From contig JAAZEL010000069.1 of the NCBI GenBank assembly GCA_012512325.1, forward strand, positions 1,303-65,302: DNA of 64,000 nt, given 5' to 3'. The notes beneath the pieces were generated by a model. The model did not search any database. It was not told the DNA's origin and saw nothing but the letters and a program-made list of their open reading frames with translations. The DNA comes from Candidatus Fermentithermobacillaceae bacterium. Lineage in GTDB: Bacteria > Bacillota > Sulfobacillia > Fermentithermobacillales > Fermentithermobacillaceae. Below, one piece after another: positions 4,628 to 41,900 of the stretch; the first letter of the stretch is position 1; each line of letters opens with the position of its first letter. A program made the position numbers and the translations under genes.

Positions 4628-4950
4628 AACTGATGATTGCGGTTATCCAGGACAAGGACGTCCCCAAACTCATGGATGCCCTTGTGCGATCAGGGTTCAG
4701 CGCTACGAAACTTGCTTCTACTGGCGGCTTTCTCCGGGAAGGTAACTCCACGATCTTGATCGGGGTGGACGATGACGATATCGAAAGCGTTCTGGATATC
4801 GTCAAGAGCACCTGCAGCGCCCGTGAACAGCTTGTGACGCCCATAACTCCGGTTGGGCCTGCCGAGTCATATGTACCGTATCCGGTAGGGGTTGTGGTAG
4901 GCGGAGCCACGGTCTTTATCCTGCCGATTGAGAGGTTTGTCAAGGTTTAG
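4624..4950 (+). CDS. darA: cyclic-di-AMP receptor, PII-like protein DarA (YaaQ)
   Basis: (M)KLMIAVIQDKDVPKLMDALVRSGFSATKLASTGGFLREGNSTILIGVDD... aligns almost colinearly with B. subtilis DarA MKLIVAVVQDQD... GTG start overlaps the tmk stop. Confidence 0.85.
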   Translation: MKLMIAVIQDKDVPKLMDALVRSGFSATKLASTGGFLREGNSTILIGVDDDDIESVLDIVKSTCSAREQLVTPITPVGPAESYVPYPVGVVVGGATVFILPIERFVKV

Positions 4951-4987
4951 CAGCCCGGGAATATGGTATGAGGTGTCATGTAAACCC

Positions 4988-5917
4988 GTGGATCACGTGA
5001 AACACATTGTCAGCGGCCAAGAGGTTGCCGTCAAGATACTCAAAGCCATACTGAAATCAGGCAGGGTTGCCCACGCATACCTGCTGAAAGGCCCGGCAGG
5101 TTCGGGGAAAACCGCCTTGGCAAGGCAGTTCGCAAAGGGATTGTTGTGCCTGAATCCTGGCCCGGCGGGAAGTGGTCTTGAAGCGGGAGCCGATACAGGG
5201 CTTTCGTGCAATATGTGTGAGTCGTGCAGCAGGGTGGATAAGGGTAGCCATCCCGATTTGCTGATTATCGAAAAGGAAGGGACAAGCATCAGGATCAGTG
5301 CCTCCCACGGGATGATCATGGAAGTGCTCACACGCCCGCTTATTTCCAAGCGCAAGGTTTTCATTGTGGATGATGCTGAAGCTCTGACTGCCGAGGCGGC
5401 TAACGCATTGCTCAAACTTCTGGAAGAACCGCCTGCCTACGTCAATTTCATCCTTACCACGTCAAACGAGACGGCAATTCCCGCCACGGTGGTCTCCAGG
5501 TGTCAGGTGATCCCTCTGAGGGCCTTGCCTACCGGGGCGAAAGACGATGTTGACGTGGAAGTGCCCGTGGACGCAATATTGAGAGCTTCCCCTGTGGATC
5601 TTGCACTTGAACATTCCAAGGCAGACTCACAAGACAGGCACAGGTTCCTTGCCGCCCTGGAGCTTAGGTTTGCACAGAGGCTTTTCAGCGCGGCCATGGG
5701 TTATAATCGTGATGAAAGTGGAGAACACATGGAATGCGAGCTACACGGAGAACACGAAATGTCAGGGAAAGGCGGGGACATCGCTCTCATGGAGAACTTC
5801 CGGGTTCTTAGGGCGATCACCAGGGCCAGGCGGAGACTGGCTGCCAACACCAACCCGTTTCTCGTGTTTTGTACCCTGTTCATGGACATACAGAAGCTTA
5901 TCACAGAGGAGATCTGA
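4988..5917 (+). CDS. holB: DNA polymerase III subunit delta'
   Basis: AAA+ Walker A AYLLKGPAGSGKTALA, a CxxC zinc module (CNMCESC) and a FIVDDAEALT box. The position after tmk/darA matches B. subtilis. Start chosen at the in-frame GTG after the darA stop. Confidence 0.8.
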   Translation: MDHVKHIVSGQEVAVKILKAILKSGRVAHAYLLKGPAGSGKTALARQFAKGLLCLNPGPAGSGLEAGADTGLSCNMCESCSRVDKGSHPDLLIIEKEGTSIRISASHGMIMEVLTRPLISKRKVFIVDDAEALTAEAANALLKLLEEPPAYVNFILTTSNETAIPATVVSRCQVIPLRALPTGAKDDVDVEVPVDAILRASPVDLALEHSKADSQDRHRFLAALELRFAQRLFSAAMGYNRDESGEHMECELHGEHEMSGKGGDIALMENFRVLRAITRARRRLAANTNPFLVFCTLFMDIQKLITEEI

Positions 5918-37206: not shown

Positions 37207-38046
37207 CTATACCCCTTTTACGGCAAGCACCTCTCTGGCAGGGGTCCGGTCTCCGGTGCAGTTTATCATCCTGGGAGCGTCAAGGTATCTAAGACAAAAG
37301 CCCAGGTTCTTGTAGAGCCGGACAATCCGGTTGGTGGCTTGATTGGACAAGACGACCCGACCGGGATGTCTTGCCAGCCACTGAGCAAGCCTTACCTGAT
37401 CCTCCCATGTAAAGCCTTCCTTGGAGTACTGGGTGAACTCAACGTCATAGGGGGGATCGGCATAGATGAAATCGTCAGGTTGGACCGGTATATCCTCGAA
37501 ATCAGTGCAGGTAAATTGCCAGTTCCTGAACAGGGATTGGTAAGGTGAGAAATCCCGGATGTAGTTTATGGTCTTGTAACGCCCGAAGGGGACGTTGAAC
37601 TTACCTTTCTTGTTGAACCTGCAAAGGCCGTTGTAGCCGGTACGGTTGAGATAATAGAACAGCTCTGCCGCTTGTTTGGTGTTGTCAAGACCTTGCTGTA
37701 TGAGTTCATTGAAGCGGTTACGGTGGGAATAATAGAGCTCCTTCTCGTTCCGCATGTCGATTTCGACCTGAAGGCCTTTGGAGACCCAACGGAAGAAATT
37801 GATCAGATGCCGGTTTATGTCGTTGAGCAATGCTGAGTCCGGCATTAGGCCCAAAGTCACGGCCAATCCGCCGCAGAAGGGCTCAACCAGGCGCCTGTGG
37901 GAATGGGGGGTCCAGTATTCCCTCAAGTAGGGGACTAACCACCGTTTGCCGCCTGCCCATTTCAAGGGGGGCTTCAGGGTTGGTTGTACGGTGTTTTGTC
38001 GGGGCAAGATGTCTTGTTGTTTCTTACGTTGCGATGGCGGTACCAC
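37207..38046 (-). CDS. Dam-family (D12-class) DNA N6-adenine methyltransferase
   Basis: LKWAGGKRWL N-terminal motif, FxGxG-type SAM motif EPFCGGLAV and catalytic DPPY (FIYADPPY). No recognisable cognate endonuclease could be confirmed. Confidence 0.85.
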   Translation of the reverse strand: MVPPSQRKKQQDILPRQNTVQPTLKPPLKWAGGKRWLVPYLREYWTPHSHRRLVEPFCGGLAVTLGLMPDSALLNDINRHLINFFRWVSKGLQVEIDMRNEKELYYSHRNRFNELIQQGLDNTKQAAELFYYLNRTGYNGLCRFNKKGKFNVPFGRYKTINYIRDFSPYQSLFRNWQFTCTDFEDIPVQPDDFIYADPPYDVEFTQYSKEGFTWEDQVRLAQWLARHPGRVVLSNQATNRIVRLYKNLGFCLRYLDAPRMINCTGDRTPAREVLAVKGV

Positions 38047-38662
38047 TTACCGTCCTCCCAAGTGAGCTTATGCTATGCACATGTTTCTGCAAGCTTACAG
38101 GGTAATCCTGCGCCTGGCCTTTGTGCGCTGTACCGTTTCCCGGAGCACGTCCTTTTGTGCCAGTGCAGGTTCTTTCAAAGCAGGCACTAGATGAACAAGC
38201 CGGTTGCTTGAGTCTGGTTGCGAGACCTATGAAGCTTCCGGCAACACCGTTGCCTTTGAGTAGACTATCCAATGCTCTGATGCCCCAGGTCATGGGTAAT
38301 ATGTCGGAAAATGCCCGGAGTGAAGCGGGCATGGTGTCCCATGGGATTACAACTCCTGAGAAGAACAAGACCAAGTATTCCAGGATAGATCCAACCCGTT
38401 TCAAAACCATACTCAAAGATGCCATGAAAACTCCGAAGGCGTAAAGGGTGATGACTACTAGGATACCGATGACCAATGCCATTAAGGATACCCTGGGTGA
38501 CGAAAACATATAGCCGAGGTCCGGCTTGAACGCCATGTAAAGCACCGCGCCAACCGCAATGCTCTGGGCAAGAGTAAACACGCAACGCGCGATACTGCGG
38601 GCAGTTAAAACATGCATAAGGTTCTTTGAGCCACAAAACCCGGTTAGTAACCCTCTCGACAA
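38024..38662 (-). pseudogene. ABC-2-type transporter permease fragment (C-terminal ~4 TM helices; N-terminus missing)
   Basis: TM-rich ORF with an ABC-2 permease C-terminal signature (VLYMAFKPDLGYMF...LVLFFSGVVIPWDTMPASLRAFSDILPMTWGIRAL). The expected N-terminal ~50 aa are absent. The upstream ATPase gene survives only as a C-terminal remnant in another frame. Confidence 0.55.
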
Positions 38663-39371
38663 AGCCCATTCTGTGACTGGCCACTATAACGGTTTTTCCC
38701 ATGTCTTTAACCCAGCTCTTTATGGATTCGGTGAGATCTGCAGCGGCAATTACGTCAAGGCACAGGACCCCTAACTCCCAGTCTAGTATTACACGGGTAT
38801 AGGGTTTGTCGTGGTCCTCGCATTCGAACTTGTAGCTGAACTTAAACGGGATCTTCTGCAAGGGCTTCTGGATGTCCCCAAAAAGGTTGAACTGCCTATT
38901 AAGCACTTGCCATTCAGGTTTCCAGTCAGGTTCTGCTTCTTCAACAACATCCAAAACGCGTTTAGGCCTGACGATTCCCAGTGACACTTTCTCAGTTTCA
39001 TAAAGGGTTTCAAGCTGCTTGACGATGTGGACCGGCATCTTGTCGATTATCGCCCGACGGGCACGCCAGTCGCGATCTCGTTTGGTATCAAGCTGTTCTC
39101 CAATGAGTTTGATTGACTCTATGAGCGGCTCACGGCTTTCTTTTCGAGCGTCGCTGGAACGTCCCCTTGGCGCAAGATTGACCTCAATCCACTGATACTT
39201 GCGGAACCGCCGTTCGCGCGGCTGATATCGGTAGGGTATGGGGTAAAGCCGCACCCATTCATAGTCATCAGTGATCCCGGCAGTACATACTAGTTCCTTG
39301 TACTCGCGTGATGGATGAGGATACGTCATGACCGTTATCAATACACGTGTTGCTTGATAATCTGTTCCCAT
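38265..39371 (-). CDS. hypothetical protein of unknown family (~200 aa native part) fused in-frame to an ABC-ATPase C-terminal remnant; true 3' end uncertain
   Basis: Start ATG 39371 with GAGGTG RBS. Residues 1 to ~190 match nothing I recognise. A possible PD-(D/E)xK-like D...ExK appears at VILDWE...TESIK. Residues ~220-250 (DMGKTVIVASHRMGFVERVTNRVLWLKE) look like the tail of an ABC ATP-binding protein. Downstream of 38662 the ORF runs through the permease fragment in another frame, so that part is spurious. Confidence 0.4.
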   Translation of the reverse strand: MGTDYQATRVLITVMTYPHPSREYKELVCTAGITDDYEWVRLYPIPYRYQPRERRFRKYQWIEVNLAPRGRSSDARKESREPLIESIKLIGEQLDTKRDRDWRARRAIIDKMPVHIVKQLETLYETEKVSLGIVRPKRVLDVVEEAEPDWKPEWQVLNRQFNLFGDIQKPLQKIPFKFSYKFECEDHDKPYTRVILDWELGVLCLDVIAAADLTESIKSWVKDMGKTVIVASHRMGFVERVTNRVLWLKEPYACFNCPQYRALRVYSCPEHCGWRGALHGVQAGPRLYVFVTQGILNGIGHRYPSSHHPLRLRSFHGIFEYGFETGWIYPGILGLVLLRSCNPMGHHARFTPGIFRHITHDLGHQSIG

Positions 39372-40248
39372 TTGGCCACCTCAAGTCGCTGACGGTTAAC
39401 CCTGTGCTATCCGAAATAGATTCAGCTAGGACGGACCTATGGTAACGACTTGGATCGACTTCCATACACATGAGCGTTGAAGGCTTCGAACTCATCCACG
39501 ATGCAATATCTCGGACTAAGTCTTCTGCAGAGTTAAGAACCTCCTCTGTGTATCTGTTGAACAGCATGTCGAGATCGTCTTGGTCGTCCAAACATGCTCT
39601 CCATTCGGAAGGGATTCCCACTTGGGGCATATGTCGATATTCGATGTCCACATATTTTGCAAGATTCGCCAGTGTCGATCCGTAGAAACCAAATACCCGC
39701 GATACTGCATTTCTTCTTACGTCTATGAGCTGCTTGATCCCTGACCGTAGCAACAGATTCAAGAATCCATCTACTTGCATGCTCGAATAACCTACGGTGT
39801 ACACGGCATAGGGAGCTTCTTTGAGTGGGATGTAGTGCCTGTTGCGCTCACTTCTCGTTGCATACCAAGGATGTTGCGCATACACTAGTTCGGTCAGTTC
39901 ATTGACGGGATACTGACCATAGTTCGCCCAGAATCTGCCAAACTCCTTCCAAAGATTAGGGGGCAGATCCAATGATGTCTGTAACCCAAGGTCAGTGAGG
40001 CGGATGGCATTCGAGGACGGCAGCTCAATCAGTCCACTATCAATCATTTTCTGGAGTTCGTGATATAGCGTGAAAGAAAAGGGTCCATACTTGTAAGGGA
40101 GAAATTGGTAGAAAGCATGTGTATAGCGTGGACTGAGGTGCTGCCGGAGAAGAAATACTTGCTTGACGAGCTTCAGACGGGTTGTGCTTCCTCCGGAACA
40201 CTTTATTAACGCGATTATCAGCTTTTGTCTTATTAACATTTCAATCAC
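39268..40248 (-). CDS. fusion protein: N-terminal Panacea-like (DUF4065-like, xYGP motif) domain + C-terminal DUF488 domain
   Basis: N-terminus RLKLVKQVFLLRQ...FYQFLPYKYGPFSFTLYHEL resembles the Panacea/SocA/GepA antitoxin-domain motif (KLQKLLYYAQ...AWKYGPV). C-terminus VYTVGYSSMQVDGFLNLLLRSGIKQLIDVRRNAVSRVFGF...IEYRHMPQVGIP matches DUF488 (YTIGHS...LVDVR...SR). Own promoter-like TTGGCC-17-TACAAT; its 3' end overlaps the next gene by 104 nt. Confidence 0.6.
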   Translation of the reverse strand: MIEMLIRQKLIIALIKCSGGSTTRLKLVKQVFLLRQHLSPRYTHAFYQFLPYKYGPFSFTLYHELQKMIDSGLIELPSSNAIRLTDLGLQTSLDLPPNLWKEFGRFWANYGQYPVNELTELVYAQHPWYATRSERNRHYIPLKEAPYAVYTVGYSSMQVDGFLNLLLRSGIKQLIDVRRNAVSRVFGFYGSTLANLAKYVDIEYRHMPQVGIPSEWRACLDDQDDLDMLFNRYTEEVLNSAEDLVRDIASWMSSKPSTLMCMEVDPSRYHRSVLAESISDSTGLTVSDLRWPNGNRLSSNTCIDNGHDVSSSITRVQGTSMYCRDH

Positions 40249-40326
40249 TCTCGGAACTCAGTCCATCAGGTCTTAGTATCTATTTCCATTGTAGAGTTTT
40301 TCCTTGTATGATGGCCAAAAGCATGG

Positions 40327-40824
40327 CTAGATTGATGGTCGTCTCATAATCCCTTGTGAGACTTCAGAAATGGCCTTTATTATGCATGCTTCCCGGTGTC
40401 TAATGAACTGATCGAAATCATCCCGCATCAGAGCTTCGTATGCCTGTTTGTTAATGAAATGGGTTTCAAGCGTTTGTAACAGCCGAGACTCATCATTGTC
40501 ATGCCCTTCCAAGCACTCTTTGAAGAATTCAGATGGTCGTTTGTTCCGCTTGCGGTTATTGGTCTCTTTGGATATGAGTGTTCTGTTTAGAATGATGTCC
40601 ACTTGGTGATCGTGCCTGTATACTTCGCGGGGGAAAATGTGGTCATCCTGGCATGTATGTAGATCTGCCTTTTGCCCCGTTAGGAAGTCGCGGGCTCCTT
40701 TCCGAAGAATCAAGCACATAACACCCTTGTACACAGTAGATCGTCGCTCTGCAGCGGTCAAATCAACAGCATCTACGCTTACGCGGCGGAACCAGTCAGG
40801 TTCAGTACCACTGTGTTTCACCAT
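40327..40824 (-). CDS. DUF1524 (HNH-like nuclease, GmrSD C-terminal) domain protein
   Basis: His-Me finger-like DHIFPREVYRHDH...N...ISKETNNRKRNK. Overlaps the upstream DUF262 ORF by 23 nt in a different frame. Confidence 0.65.
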   Translation of the reverse strand: MVKHSGTEPDWFRRVSVDAVDLTAAERRSTVYKGVMCLILRKGARDFLTGQKADLHTCQDDHIFPREVYRHDHQVDIILNRTLISKETNNRKRNKRPSEFFKECLEGHDNDESRLLQTLETHFINKQAYEALMRDDFDQFIRHREACIIKAISEVSQGIMRRPSI

Positions 40825-41395
40825 CCCATACGTTTTGCTCCTGGTATAGCCACTGGTAGAAGGTGTTTGGTTCTCGAAAGATAGAGAATGGTAAAGCGTG
40901 ATGGGTCCTGACCATCTCTTGAATCTTAGACATTCGCCGCCGGTCGAGCAAAGACACGCCTACAACTGCTTCTTCAATATCTCCGTTTAGAGCCGCGTCC
41001 AGCAAAAGGTAGAATTTGTGAGAGAACTTGGAATTTCTCAGTGGAATGTCAGGGCTGTAGAGGGCGTAAAAGACGGAGGTTATCCGTTGTTGCCCGTCCA
41101 GAACCAGCTGCACTGTTGGGTGGCGATCAAAACGTACCTGTTCGTTGACTTTCTCAAGTCCTTCTATTGGACGAAAGGGAAACATAGGATTATCGGCGTA
41201 AATATCGAGCATTAGAAACGCCCCGATAAAGTAGCCCTGCAGAATAGAGCTCAACAATTCTTGAATATCCCTGCGCTCCCAGATAAAAGAACGCTGAAAT
41301 TCAGGAACCACTACTTTTCCTTCGCAGGCTTCTTCTACGATTGACAAAAGCTTTCTTGGATTGGCCTCGGGGGAGTCCATTTTAGTGAAGCGCAT
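40802..41395 (-). CDS. DUF262 (ParB/Srx-like NTPase, GmrSD N-terminal) domain protein
   Basis: VVPEFQRSFIWERRDIQELLSSILQGYFIGAF and DGQQR motifs; GGAGGG RBS before ATG 41395. Confidence 0.7.
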   Translation of the reverse strand: MRFTKMDSPEANPRKLLSIVEEACEGKVVVPEFQRSFIWERRDIQELLSSILQGYFIGAFLMLDIYADNPMFPFRPIEGLEKVNEQVRFDRHPTVQLVLDGQQRITSVFYALYSPDIPLRNSKFSHKFYLLLDAALNGDIEEAVVGVSLLDRRRMSKIQEMVRTHHALPFSIFREPNTFYQWLYQEQNVWDGETQWY

Positions 41396-41736
41396 CAAAA
41401 ACCCTCCTGCTTAGTTATTGCTCTCGGTCATTATCGCCAGGGCTTTTCACCCCACAAGTCTTTAGTGCGAATTTTCTAAGTTGATGGATTGCGTTGTTGA
41501 TTAATGGATGATTTTTGTGTCGCCCACAGTCTCTAATGGTGCATTCGACGCAGAGCAGCCGTCAACCTCTCCATGGATGCGCTCAGGATATGGCTGTCAC
41601 TCTAGGCGAAGATGCTACATAGGAGGCCTAAAGGAATCTACCTTATGACTCGGAAAAATGGGTACAACGACACAGTTTACTAAGCGGACATCATATGGGT
41701 CAAAACACAAAGGGAAGACTGAGTCAGGTTAGAATA

Positions 41737-41812
41737 TGGTGGGCCATACAGGACTCGAACCTGTAACCCTCCGATTAAGAGTCGGATGCTCTACCAATTG
41801 AGCTAATGGCCC
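41737..41812 (-). tRNA. tRNA-Lys (anticodon CUU)
   Basis: Minus-strand sequence GGGCCATTAGCTCAATTGGTAGAGCATCCGACTCTTAATCGGAGGGTTACAGGTTCGAGTCCTGTATGGCCCACCA. It folds as a cloverleaf with anticodon loop CTCTTAA. Confidence 0.8.
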
Positions 41813-41823
41813 ATGAAAAAGTC

Positions 41824-41900
41824 TGGTAGCGGCGACTGGATTCGAACCAGTGACTCTACGGGTATGAACCGTATGCTCTAACCAACTGAGCTACGCCGCC
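41824..41900 (-). tRNA. tRNA-Met (elongator-type, anticodon CAU; lysidine-tRNA-Ile2 not excluded)
   Basis: Minus-strand GGCGGCGTAGCTCAGTTGGTTAGAGCATACGGTTCATACCCGTAGAGTCACTGGTTCGAATCCAGTCGCCGCTACCA. Anticodon loop TTCATAC. The anticodon stem lacks the three G-C pairs of initiator tRNA. Confidence 0.75.

What the first reader, a model, noticed from the sequence alone, without database searches (positions are those of the whole stretch)
38265..40248. Overlapping gene pair: Panacea-like/DUF488 fusion upstream of an unknown ~200-aa protein; candidate novel two-gene toxin-antitoxin or defence module
The 326-aa upstream protein combines an N-terminal region with the Panacea/DUF4065-type motif (LKLVKQVFLLRQ...YQFLPYKYGPF...LYHEL) and a clear C-terminal DUF488 domain (YTVGYS...LIDVRR...SR). 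I do not know this architecture from described systems. Its stop lies 104 nt inside the next ORF. That ORF has a strong GAGGTG RBS and encodes a protein with no family resemblance, except a possible PD-(D/E)xK-like D...ExK (VILDWE/TESIK). Panacea domains characteristically pair with diverse toxins. Overlapping, translationally coupled genes are typical of toxin-antitoxin and abortive-infection modules.
Basis: partly seen in the sequence, partly recalled or inferred. Interest (0 to 1): 0.7.

Follow-up and report, generated by a model that had tools for sequence, protein, structure and literature searches.

The report
Decayed PDC-M19 candidate defence gene pair
The two overlapping genes are a broken copy of a widespread but untested candidate phage-defence pair that the PADLOC database already lists as PDC-M19, so it is neither new nor likely to work here.

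Summary
Two minus-strand ORFs, A (39268-40248) and B (38265-39371), overlap by 104 nt, and a GAGGTG sits 5 nt before B's ATG.

- **Not new.** A matches PADLOC PDC-M19A (E=2e-67) and B matches PDC-M19B (E=3e-60). PDC-M19 is a predicted phage-defence candidate for which I found no experimental test.
- **Protein B.** It is not a PD-(D/E)xK nuclease. A full-length homologue models as a tandem OB fold, like single-stranded-DNA binders. The proposed "TESIK" motif lies in foreign sequence.
- **B is broken here.** Homology stops at residue ~205 of ~265-275. The ORF then runs in frame into an ABC-ATPase fragment. A sister assembly has the same truncation plus frameshifts confined to B. A here also has Tyr in place of the near-invariant Cys of DUF488's CHR motif.
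- **Family pattern.** Intact B always had an intact partner in 76 of 76 evaluable loci. That partner was A or an ASCH protein; more distant B relatives pair with a stand-alone DUF488. A, in contrast, often survives loss of B.

My reading, by inference only, is that B is the harmful effector and A a DarG-like antagonist. The copy in this window is most likely inactive.

The parts
39268..40248 (-). Gene A (PDC-M19A): Panacea/DarG-CTD-like N-terminal domain plus DUF488. It is 326 aa from the GTG at 40248; the likely true start is the ATG at 40239 (323 aa).
   Evidence: ORF. PADLOC PDLC04505, E=2.2e-67, residues 4-284 on profile 1-287/294. phrog_14939, E=2.8e-34. 100% identical to P0121, annotated 'DUF488 family protein'. 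Model pLDDT 89.2, pTM 0.86.
39844..40239 (-). N-terminal domain of A (residues ~4-135): a winged-helix-based domain related to Panacea and to the DarG C-terminal domain.
39385..39807 (-). DUF488 domain of A (residues ~148-288), close to the N3a subclade.
39442..39444 (-). Codon TAC (Tyr269), replacing the nearly invariant Cys of the DUF488 'CHR' motif.
   Evidence: In alignment A3 this Cys is conserved in 90% or more of members, and the following H270 and R271 are invariant. Sister assemblies L001 and L086 have TGT (Cys) at this codon.
39268..39381 (-). C-terminal tail of A (residues ~290-326), which overlaps the start of B. It is predicted to be disordered.
   Evidence: pLDDT is below 50 for residues 296-326. 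The tail is 42 aa here against about 6-14 aa in most family members. A similarly long tail occurs in the closest relative, L002.
39377..39382 (-). Shine-Dalgarno-like GAGGTG, 5 nt upstream of B's ATG.
   Evidence: Read directly from the sequence.
38757..39371 (-). Remnant of gene B (PDC-M19B): residues 1-~205 of a ~265-275-aa tandem-OB-fold protein. It is truncated at the 3' end.
38607..38756 (-). Fragment of an ABC-transporter ATPase (D-loop to H-loop region, ~50 aa), fused in frame to truncated B.
   Evidence: NCBIfam and PHROG ABC-ATPase hits on ORF residues ~194-255. PADLOC mad3 hit on residues 205-249.
38265..38606 (-). Rest of the 368-aa ORF: read-through with no family match, lying out of frame over the permease fragment.
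   Evidence: No homology beyond residue ~255. It overlaps ORF 38024..38662.
38024..38662 (-). Fragment of an ABC-2 permease that lacks about the first 95 profile positions.
   Evidence: PF01061, E=1.7e-10, residues 18-132 on profile 95-207/211.
40288..40317 (-). Promoter-like site (TGGCCA-18-TACAAT) about 40 nt upstream of A.
   Evidence: Consensus scan. The number of such sites is not above the shuffled expectation, so this is only a candidate.

Best explanation
The locus is a decaying copy of the two-gene module that PADLOC lists as phage-defence candidate PDC-M19. It sits in a low-GC island between MgtC and tRNA-Lys/tRNA-Met, next to a Dam-type methyltransferase and a short GmrSD-like gene pair.

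Gene A encodes a bipartite protein built like the antitoxin DarG: a partner-binding domain (Panacea-like, DarG-CTD-like) joined to a presumed enzymatic domain (DUF488, N3a type). Gene B encodes a stand-alone tandem-OB-fold protein of the single-stranded nucleic-acid-binding kind.

In this genome B has lost its last ~60 residues, including the last two strands of its second barrel, to a deletion that fused it in frame to an ABC-ATPase fragment. A carries a Cys-to-Tyr change in DUF488's most conserved motif. The module is therefore most likely non-functional here.

For the intact family I infer a toxin-antitoxin-like logic. B is the harmful or effector component. A is its obligatory antagonist or regulator, acting through its N-terminal domain (direct binding, possibly over B's nucleic-acid groove, as DarG's C-terminal domain does with DarT), through DUF488's unknown enzymatic activity, or both. 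In other lineages a stand-alone DUF488 or an ASCH protein takes A's place.

Shown: family membership, domain content, the truncation, conserved linkage, and asymmetric loss. Inferred: which partner is toxic, the binding mode, and any role in phage defence.
For: **Membership.** PADLOC PDC-M19A E=2.2e-67 and PDC-M19B E=2.7e-60. [quoted passage not shown]

**Truncation.**
- B similarity ends at residue ~205, against full-length homologues of ~258-278 aa (two shorter database entries aside); the conserved 'DTRFFMGTxFPYNxWVVLGVFWPPK' segment is missing.
- ABC-ATPase and ABC-2 permease fragments follow.
- The same architecture appears in an independent assembly, L001, at 99.8% identity. All five of its indels fall inside the B remnant and none in the other ~4.4 kb.
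- Tyr269 replaces a Cys conserved in 90% or more of family members; L001 and L086 keep Cys.

**Folds.**

**Linkage.**
- 67 of 80 B-anchored loci have A directly upstream; the other 13 carry an ASCH-like gene there instead (PF04266 confirmed on one representative).
- Distant B homologues on plasmids pYS1 and pRL8 and in Gordonia phage Nymphadora pair with a convergent stand-alone DUF488.
- No third gene is conserved.

**Asymmetry.** 0 of 76 intact B genes lack an intact partner, whereas 7 of 58 A genes have a truncated or absent B (Fisher p=0.002).

**Conservation gradient.** B 60% > DUF488 45% > N-domain 34% identity to the window, in that order in 68 of 68 loci.

**Gene order and coupling.** The A-first order and ~4-nt stop/start coupling match the common arrangement of Panacea antitoxin-toxin pairs (PMC8832971).
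Against: - No experiment on any family member was found; PDC-M19 is a prediction by 'guilt-by-embedding'.
- DUF488's activity is unknown.
- The Panacea-like domain is absent from the stand-alone-DUF488 and ASCH variants, so it cannot be the essential neutralising element.
- Convergent DUF488/B pairs are not operon-like, unlike classical type II toxin-antitoxin pairs.
- Only a minority of neighbouring genes are defence- or mobile-element-related.
- The two locus sets behind the asymmetry test come from different collections (genomes versus metagenome contigs).
- A truncated B::ABC fusion protein could in principle retain some activity.
Confidence: 0.6

Rival explanations
1. The pair in this window is an intact, working two-gene toxin-antitoxin or abortive-infection module.
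For: Both ORFs are open. B has a good RBS. A models with high confidence. The locus sits among defence-type genes: a Dam methyltransferase and a GmrSD-like pair.
Against: B lacks the C-terminal ~60 residues that are conserved in the family, including two predicted barrel strands. Its 3' part is ABC-transporter debris. The sister strain shows frameshifts confined to B. The near-invariant Cys in A is replaced by Tyr.
Confidence: 0.07
2. The roles are reversed. DUF488 is the toxic effector enzyme, and its fused Panacea-like domain is an auto-inhibitory or sensor module, as in fused toxin-antitoxin defence proteins. B is the antitoxin, or a sensor that recognises phage single-stranded DNA.
For: DUF488 has an enzyme-like set of invariant residues: D176, R178, R184, E263, H270, R271. 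Its Pfam subclade is labelled 'active'. OB-fold proteins are natural sensors of ssDNA. The Tyr269 substitution here could be a compensatory inactivation after B was lost.
Against: A stays intact, with Cys, beside the same truncated B in L001. A is intact where B is deleted or absent in at least 5 other loci, while intact B never lacks a partner. B, not A, is the most conserved component. In the ASCH variants DUF488 is dispensable while B is kept.
Confidence: 0.17
3. It is not a conflict system. It is an accessory nucleic-acid maintenance pair, in which an enzyme (DUF488 or ASCH) acts on single-stranded DNA or RNA bound by the OB-fold partner, and it is carried around by mobile elements.
For: Most neighbouring genes are ordinary metabolic or housekeeping genes and no defence gene is consistently adjacent. 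ASCH domains are associated with RNA/nucleotide processing (my own knowledge). The solved structures closest to B are replication and repair ssDNA binders.
Against: The family has a patchy, cross-phylum distribution at ~60% identity, which implies horizontal spread. It occurs on conjugative plasmids and in the immunity region of temperate phages. It was found embedded in known defence systems. Here it lies in a low-GC island next to tRNA genes. The asymmetric loss pattern is typical of addiction modules.
Confidence: 0.16

Closest known systems
PADLOC phage-defence candidate PDC-M19 (Payne et al. 2024, 'guilt-by-embedding')
   Same: Both proteins match the PDC-M19A and PDC-M19B models strongly, in the same order and orientation.
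   Different: B covers only profile positions 3-213 of 269 and is fused to ABC-transporter debris. A carries Tyr at the conserved Cys. PDC-M19 itself is only a prediction with no assigned mechanism.
DarTG (DarG2 antitoxin: macrodomain plus DarT-binding C-terminal domain)
   Different: There is no macrodomain (DUF488 instead) and the domain order is reversed. B is an OB-fold protein, not an ADP-ribosyltransferase. There is no sequence-level similarity.
PanAT (Panacea/DUF4065 antitoxin-toxin pairs, Kurata et al. 2022, PMC8832971)
   Same: Two-gene locus with the antitoxin-like gene first, under 100 nt apart, and conserved across species. The N-domain is remotely related to PF13274.
   Different: The window protein fails the Pfam cut-off. 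The Panacea-like domain is fused to DUF488, a combination found in neither the text nor the supplements of that paper. B also pairs with partners that have no Panacea domain.
Pfam DuOB (PF22557, dual OB-containing domain) and multi-OB ssDNA binders (RADX, RPA, LEF-3)
   Same: B is predicted to have two OB-like beta-barrels, and its best structural matches are these proteins. A phage homologue gives a weak DuOB hit.

Membership tests
PADLOC PDC-M19 | Adjacent genes matching the PDC-M19A and PDC-M19B HMMs | tested here: met
   A: PDLC04505, E=2.2e-67, near full length. B: PDLC04508, E=2.7e-60. The genes are adjacent and co-directional.
PADLOC PDC-M19 | Full-length B component | tested here: not met
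   B covers profile positions 3-213 of 269. The alignment shows the last ~60 residues replaced by an ABC-ATPase fragment.
DUF488 (PF04343) | Pfam hit above the gathering score | tested here: met
   75.4 bits against a cut-off of 22.2, residues 159-277.
DUF488 (PF04343) | Conserved C-x-E ... C-H-R motif intact | tested here: not met
   The window has S-R-Y-H-R. This Cys is conserved in 90% or more of the 53 aligned members and is present in sister assemblies.
Panacea / PanA antitoxin (PF13274) | Pfam SocA_Panacea hit above the gathering score | tested here: not met
   12.7 bits against a cut-off of 25.7 (E=0.25) for the window protein. 16 of 53 relatives hit at E<=1, and P0204 reaches 27.2 bits. 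This indicates remote homology, not formal membership.
Panacea / PanAT | Conserved two-gene locus with at most 100 nt between the genes in two or more species | tested here: met
   67 of 80 and 74 of 80 loci have the pair. The junction is usually a ~4-nt overlap or a gap of a few nt.
Panacea / PanAT | Partner is toxic and is neutralised through direct complex formation | not testable with these tools
   This needs expression and pull-down experiments. The only indirect support is the asymmetric-loss pattern.
DarTG | DarT ADP-ribosyltransferase toxin | tested here: not met
DarTG | DarG macrodomain (or NADAR domain) | tested here: not met
   Pfam finds only DUF488. The sole PADLOC DarG hit is weak (E=0.038) and maps to the DarG C-terminal region.
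DarTG | DarG C-terminal toxin-binding domain | tested here: inconclusive
PD-(D/E)xK nuclease (for B) | Restriction-endonuclease-like fold with a D...(D/E)xK motif | tested here: not met
Pfam DuOB (PF22557) | Pfam hit above the gathering score | tested here: inconclusive
   Nothing for the window's B. 1 of 54 close relatives hits at E=0.09. The Gordonia phage homologue scores 18.6 bits against a cut-off of 27.

The most novel reading that the evidence does not exclude
The intact PDC-M19 family is a new DarTG-like toxin-antitoxin or defence system. In it, a highly conserved dual-OB single-stranded-DNA-binding protein (B) is a new kind of toxin or effector. It is restrained by a DarG-style antagonist that combines a domain occupying B's nucleic-acid groove with a DUF488 enzyme. 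This would give DUF488 (and the interchangeable ASCH partner) its first assigned biological role. The copy in this window would be a fossil of that system.
Probability: 0.25. Interest if true: 0.7.

Novelty: new member of a known kind. Interest (0 to 1): 0.38.

Why it matters
As a feature of this genome it matters little: it is a pseudogenised remnant in a small, eroding defence island.

At family level, PDC-M19 is widespread. The B family has about 2,400 clusters at 50% identity and occurs in many phyla. It joins a domain of unknown function (DUF488) with a protein family that has no Pfam model, and it is untested as far as I could find.

The comparative data collected here turn it into a concrete hypothesis that can be tested at the bench:
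- A has a DarG-like bipartite build.
- B has a tandem-OB fold.
- The partner varies between a fused Panacea-DUF488, a stand-alone DUF488 and an ASCH protein.
- Intact B always has an intact partner, while A often outlives B.

If the hypothesis holds, it would give DUF488 a function and add a non-enzymatic OB-fold effector to the list of toxin types.

Tried and rejected
- **PD-(D/E)xK nuclease for B.** Rejected on fold, and because half the motif lies in foreign sequence.
- **Assembly artefact as the cause of the truncation.** Rejected, because an independent assembly (L001) has the same junctions. A third contig, L086, diverges from the window at 39130 into HflC/HisZ-like genes. I treat it as a chimeric assembly and draw no conclusion from it.
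- **att-type direct repeats at the island ends.** None found.
- **Sequence-level relatives with solved structures.** None for A or B, with single sequences or with profiles.
- **Literature.** No paper holds 'PDC-M19'. No paper on DUF488 gives it a function. Searches for 'DuOB' returned only unrelated words. DUF488 appears in neither the text nor the supplements of the Panacea paper.
- **Homologue search with A's N-domain alone.** It returned only 3 fragments, so it showed no other architectures.
- **Gordonia phage 'immunity repressor' gp44 as an A homologue.** Rejected: BLASTP found no similarity and Pfam found only an HTH.
- **A conserved third gene.** None; the most frequent Pfam family occurred in 4 of 148 neighbouring genes.
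- **Foldseek against AFDB50.** The library was unavailable.
- **Promoter and terminator scan.** Counts did not exceed the shuffled expectation.
Full report
**1. What is in the window**

The finding's two ORFs lie on the minus strand.
- A runs 39268..40248. It is 326 aa from a GTG. The family consensus (MLxRQK...) and the identical database protein P0121 (323 aa) point to the ATG at 40239 as the real start.
- The second ORF runs 38265..39371 (368 aa).
- They overlap by 104 nt. A GAGGTG lies 5 nt before the second ATG.

The host context is CopA, CsoR and MgtC on one side, and tRNA-Lys, tRNA-Met, SpoIIE, TilS and FtsH on the other. This marks a Bacillota genome. The identical protein is annotated from a 'Firmicutes bacterium' MAG. 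The stretch 38.4-41.7 kb has 44-50% GC against ~55% in the flanks.

**2. It is a catalogued candidate system**

- Pfam finds DUF488 in A (E=7.8e-21) and nothing in B.
- PADLOC-DB matches A to PDC-M19A (E=2.2e-67, essentially full length) and B to PDC-M19B (E=2.7e-60).
- PHROGs holds both families, with unknown function.
[quoted passage not shown] - I found no paper that tests the system and none that assigns a function to DUF488.

**3. B is truncated here**

- The B family is large. A word-indexed search found 1,331 proteins. An exhaustive profile search found 2,435 clusters at 50% identity, and every full-length entry among the 150 listed is a stand-alone protein of ~255-330 aa.
- Aligned with ten homologues, the window's ORF matches only to residue ~205 ('ILDWELGVLC'). 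The conserved C-terminal ~60 residues are missing.
- From residue ~204 the ORF instead matches the D-loop-to-H-loop piece of ABC-transporter ATPases.
- A fragment of an ABC-2 permease follows in another frame. Two deletions therefore appear to have left a patchwork.
- An independent metagenome contig, L001, is 99.8% identical and has the same architecture, so this is not an assembly artefact. All five of its indels relative to the window fall inside the B remnant (window 39013-39324) and none in the other ~4.4 kb. That is what a decaying pseudogene would show.

**4. What A is**

- The AlphaFold model is confident (pLDDT 89.2, pTM 0.86), except for residues 296-326. This is the tail that overlaps B, and it is predicted to be disordered.
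- The window protein is sub-threshold for Pfam SocA_Panacea (12.7 bits against 25.7). Even so, 16 of 53 aligned relatives hit that model, and one (P0204) passes the cut-off.
- DarG2 is known to have a DarT-interacting domain besides its macrodomain (PMC11825919). Deep et al. 2023 describe the C-terminal domain as an ssDNA mimic.
- In the family alignment H270 and R271 are invariant, and the preceding Cys is conserved in 90% or more of members. The window has Tyr there (codon 39442-39444), whereas L001 and L086 keep Cys.

**5. What B is**

- The full-length homologue P0002 models well (pLDDT 85.6, pTM 0.83) as two beta-barrels with helical inserts.
- Foldseek against viral models gives the baculovirus ssDNA-binding protein LEF-3.
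- A Gordonia phage homologue gives a weak Pfam 'Dual OB' hit.
- There is no sign of a PD-(D/E)xK fold.
- The truncation in the window removes the last two strands of the second barrel.

**6. Family-level comparative evidence**

*Linkage.*
- In 80 genome loci found through B (Cyanobacteria, Chloroflexota, Planctomycetota, Poribacteria, Bacillota and others), A lies directly upstream in 67.
- In the other 13 a ~165-190-aa ASCH-like protein takes its place, again overlapping B's start. Pfam ASCH was confirmed on one representative (E=1.4e-5).
- More distant B homologues (~30% identity) occur on conjugative plasmids (Burkholderia pYS1, Rhizobium pRL8) and in Gordonia temperate phages. There they pair with a convergent, 3'-overlapping stand-alone DUF488 gene.
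- Nymphadora gp42, annotated 'HipA toxin?', is in fact a DUF488 protein (E=6e-33 to the pYS1 protein). It sits in the prophage immunity region.
- The constant association is therefore between B and a DUF488 or ASCH protein, not between B and Panacea.

*Neighbourhood.* No third gene is conserved. Neighbours include some type I and II methyltransferases, integrases, TIR and Uma2 genes, but most are ordinary genes.

*Junction.* The A-stop/B-start junction is usually a ~4-nt overlap or a gap of a few nt. The window's 104 nt is the extreme.

*Conservation.* Identity to the window is B 60%, DUF488 45% and N-domain 34%, in that order in all 68 loci.

*Asymmetric loss.*
- Among 76 evaluable loci chosen through B, every intact B has an intact partner.
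- Among 58 loci chosen through A, with room for a full B, B is truncated or internally deleted in 5, absent in 2, and frameshifted in 3.
- Fisher's exact test gives p=0.002 for 0 of 76 against 7 of 58.
- Caveat: the two sets come from different collections.

**7. Interpretation**

What is shown:
- The locus is a member of PDC-M19.
- Its B gene is truncated and decaying, and its A gene carries a substitution at a near-invariant motif residue.
- The module is therefore very probably inactive here.

What is inferred for the intact family:
- The pattern is that of an addiction-type pair in which B is the harmful or effector component and A its antagonist. B never occurs without a partner, A outlives B, the gene order is antitoxin-like first with translational coupling, B is the most conserved part, and the N-domain is the fastest-evolving part.
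- A's build parallels DarG: a partner-binding domain plus an enzymatic domain.
- Because DarG's C-terminal domain blocks DarT's ssDNA site, and B looks like an ssDNA binder, one attractive possibility is that A's N-domain occupies B's nucleic-acid groove. This is speculation.
- The ASCH and stand-alone DUF488 variants show that the enzymatic partner, not the Panacea-like domain, is the indispensable one.

The rivals cannot be excluded without experiments. They are reversed roles, with DUF488 as the effector, and a non-conflict nucleic-acid maintenance pair.

**8. Verdict**

The pair is a real, conserved, toxin-antitoxin-like candidate defence module with a DUF488 domain and a divergent Panacea-like domain. 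However, it is already catalogued, B is not a nuclease of the proposed type, and this copy is degenerate.
- Interest is moderate to low for this locus. The family itself is a reasonable experimental target.

Noticed in passing
window 38024-38760 (minus strand): Debris of an ABC transporter: a ~50-aa ATPase fragment fused in frame to truncated B, followed by an ABC-2 permease fragment lacking its first ~95 profile positions. This implies at least two deletions in the island.
   Followed up: partly
window 37207-38046 (minus strand): An apparently intact Dam-family (D12 class) N6-adenine DNA methyltransferase (TIGR00571, E=5e-59; PADLOC 'orphan methyltransferase', E=5e-77). No cognate restriction gene is evident, and its start overlaps the end of the permease fragment.
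   Followed up: partly
window 40327-41398 (minus strand): Two overlapping short ORFs matching the two ends of GmrSD / HEC-05-type proteins: DUF262/GmrSD_N (198 aa) and an HNH-like C-terminus (165 aa). Together they total ~360 aa against ~600 in the profile, so this is either a split or minimal form or another decayed defence gene. The same arrangement is present in L001.
   Followed up: no
window 41737-41900 (minus strand) and 38400-41700: tRNA-Lys(CTT) and tRNA-Met(CAT) bound the low-GC stretch (44-50% against ~55%) that holds the defence-type genes. No integrase or att-like repeat was found.
   Followed up: partly
L083 (Gordonia phage Nymphadora NC_031061.1) 4822-5274: gp42, annotated 'HipA toxin, toxin-antitoxin system?', is actually a stand-alone DUF488 protein (40% identical to the plasmid pYS1 DUF488, E=6e-33). 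It is convergent with gp43, a B-family homologue that is co-directional with and adjacent to the immunity repressor gp44.
   Followed up: yes
L031, L033, L035, L037, L040, L054, L079, L008 (about 400 nt upstream of B in each): In Chloroflexota/Anaerolineae loci, B's upstream partner is an ASCH-like protein (~165-190 aa; Pfam ASCH confirmed on the L033 copy) instead of Panacea-DUF488. In L037, B itself is split into two ORFs.
   Followed up: partly
L086 (FZPS01000140.1) beyond position 1080: A contig 99.8% identical to the window over A and the first ~80 codons of B then switches abruptly to HflC- and HisZ-like genes. This is probably a chimeric metagenome assembly.
   Followed up: partly
L109, L130, L133, L141 (metagenome contigs): Independent cases where A is intact but B is internally deleted (residues ~42-229 missing in L109 and L130) or truncated. 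This suggests recurrent loss of B.
   Followed up: partly
window 40157 and 39442-39444: The only substitutions between the window and L001 within gene A are non-synonymous. At both sites the window has the non-consensus residue (Val for Ala in 'KxAFLL'; Tyr for Cys in 'CHR'). This is compatible with relaxed constraint after B was lost, but the counts are very small.
   Followed up: partly
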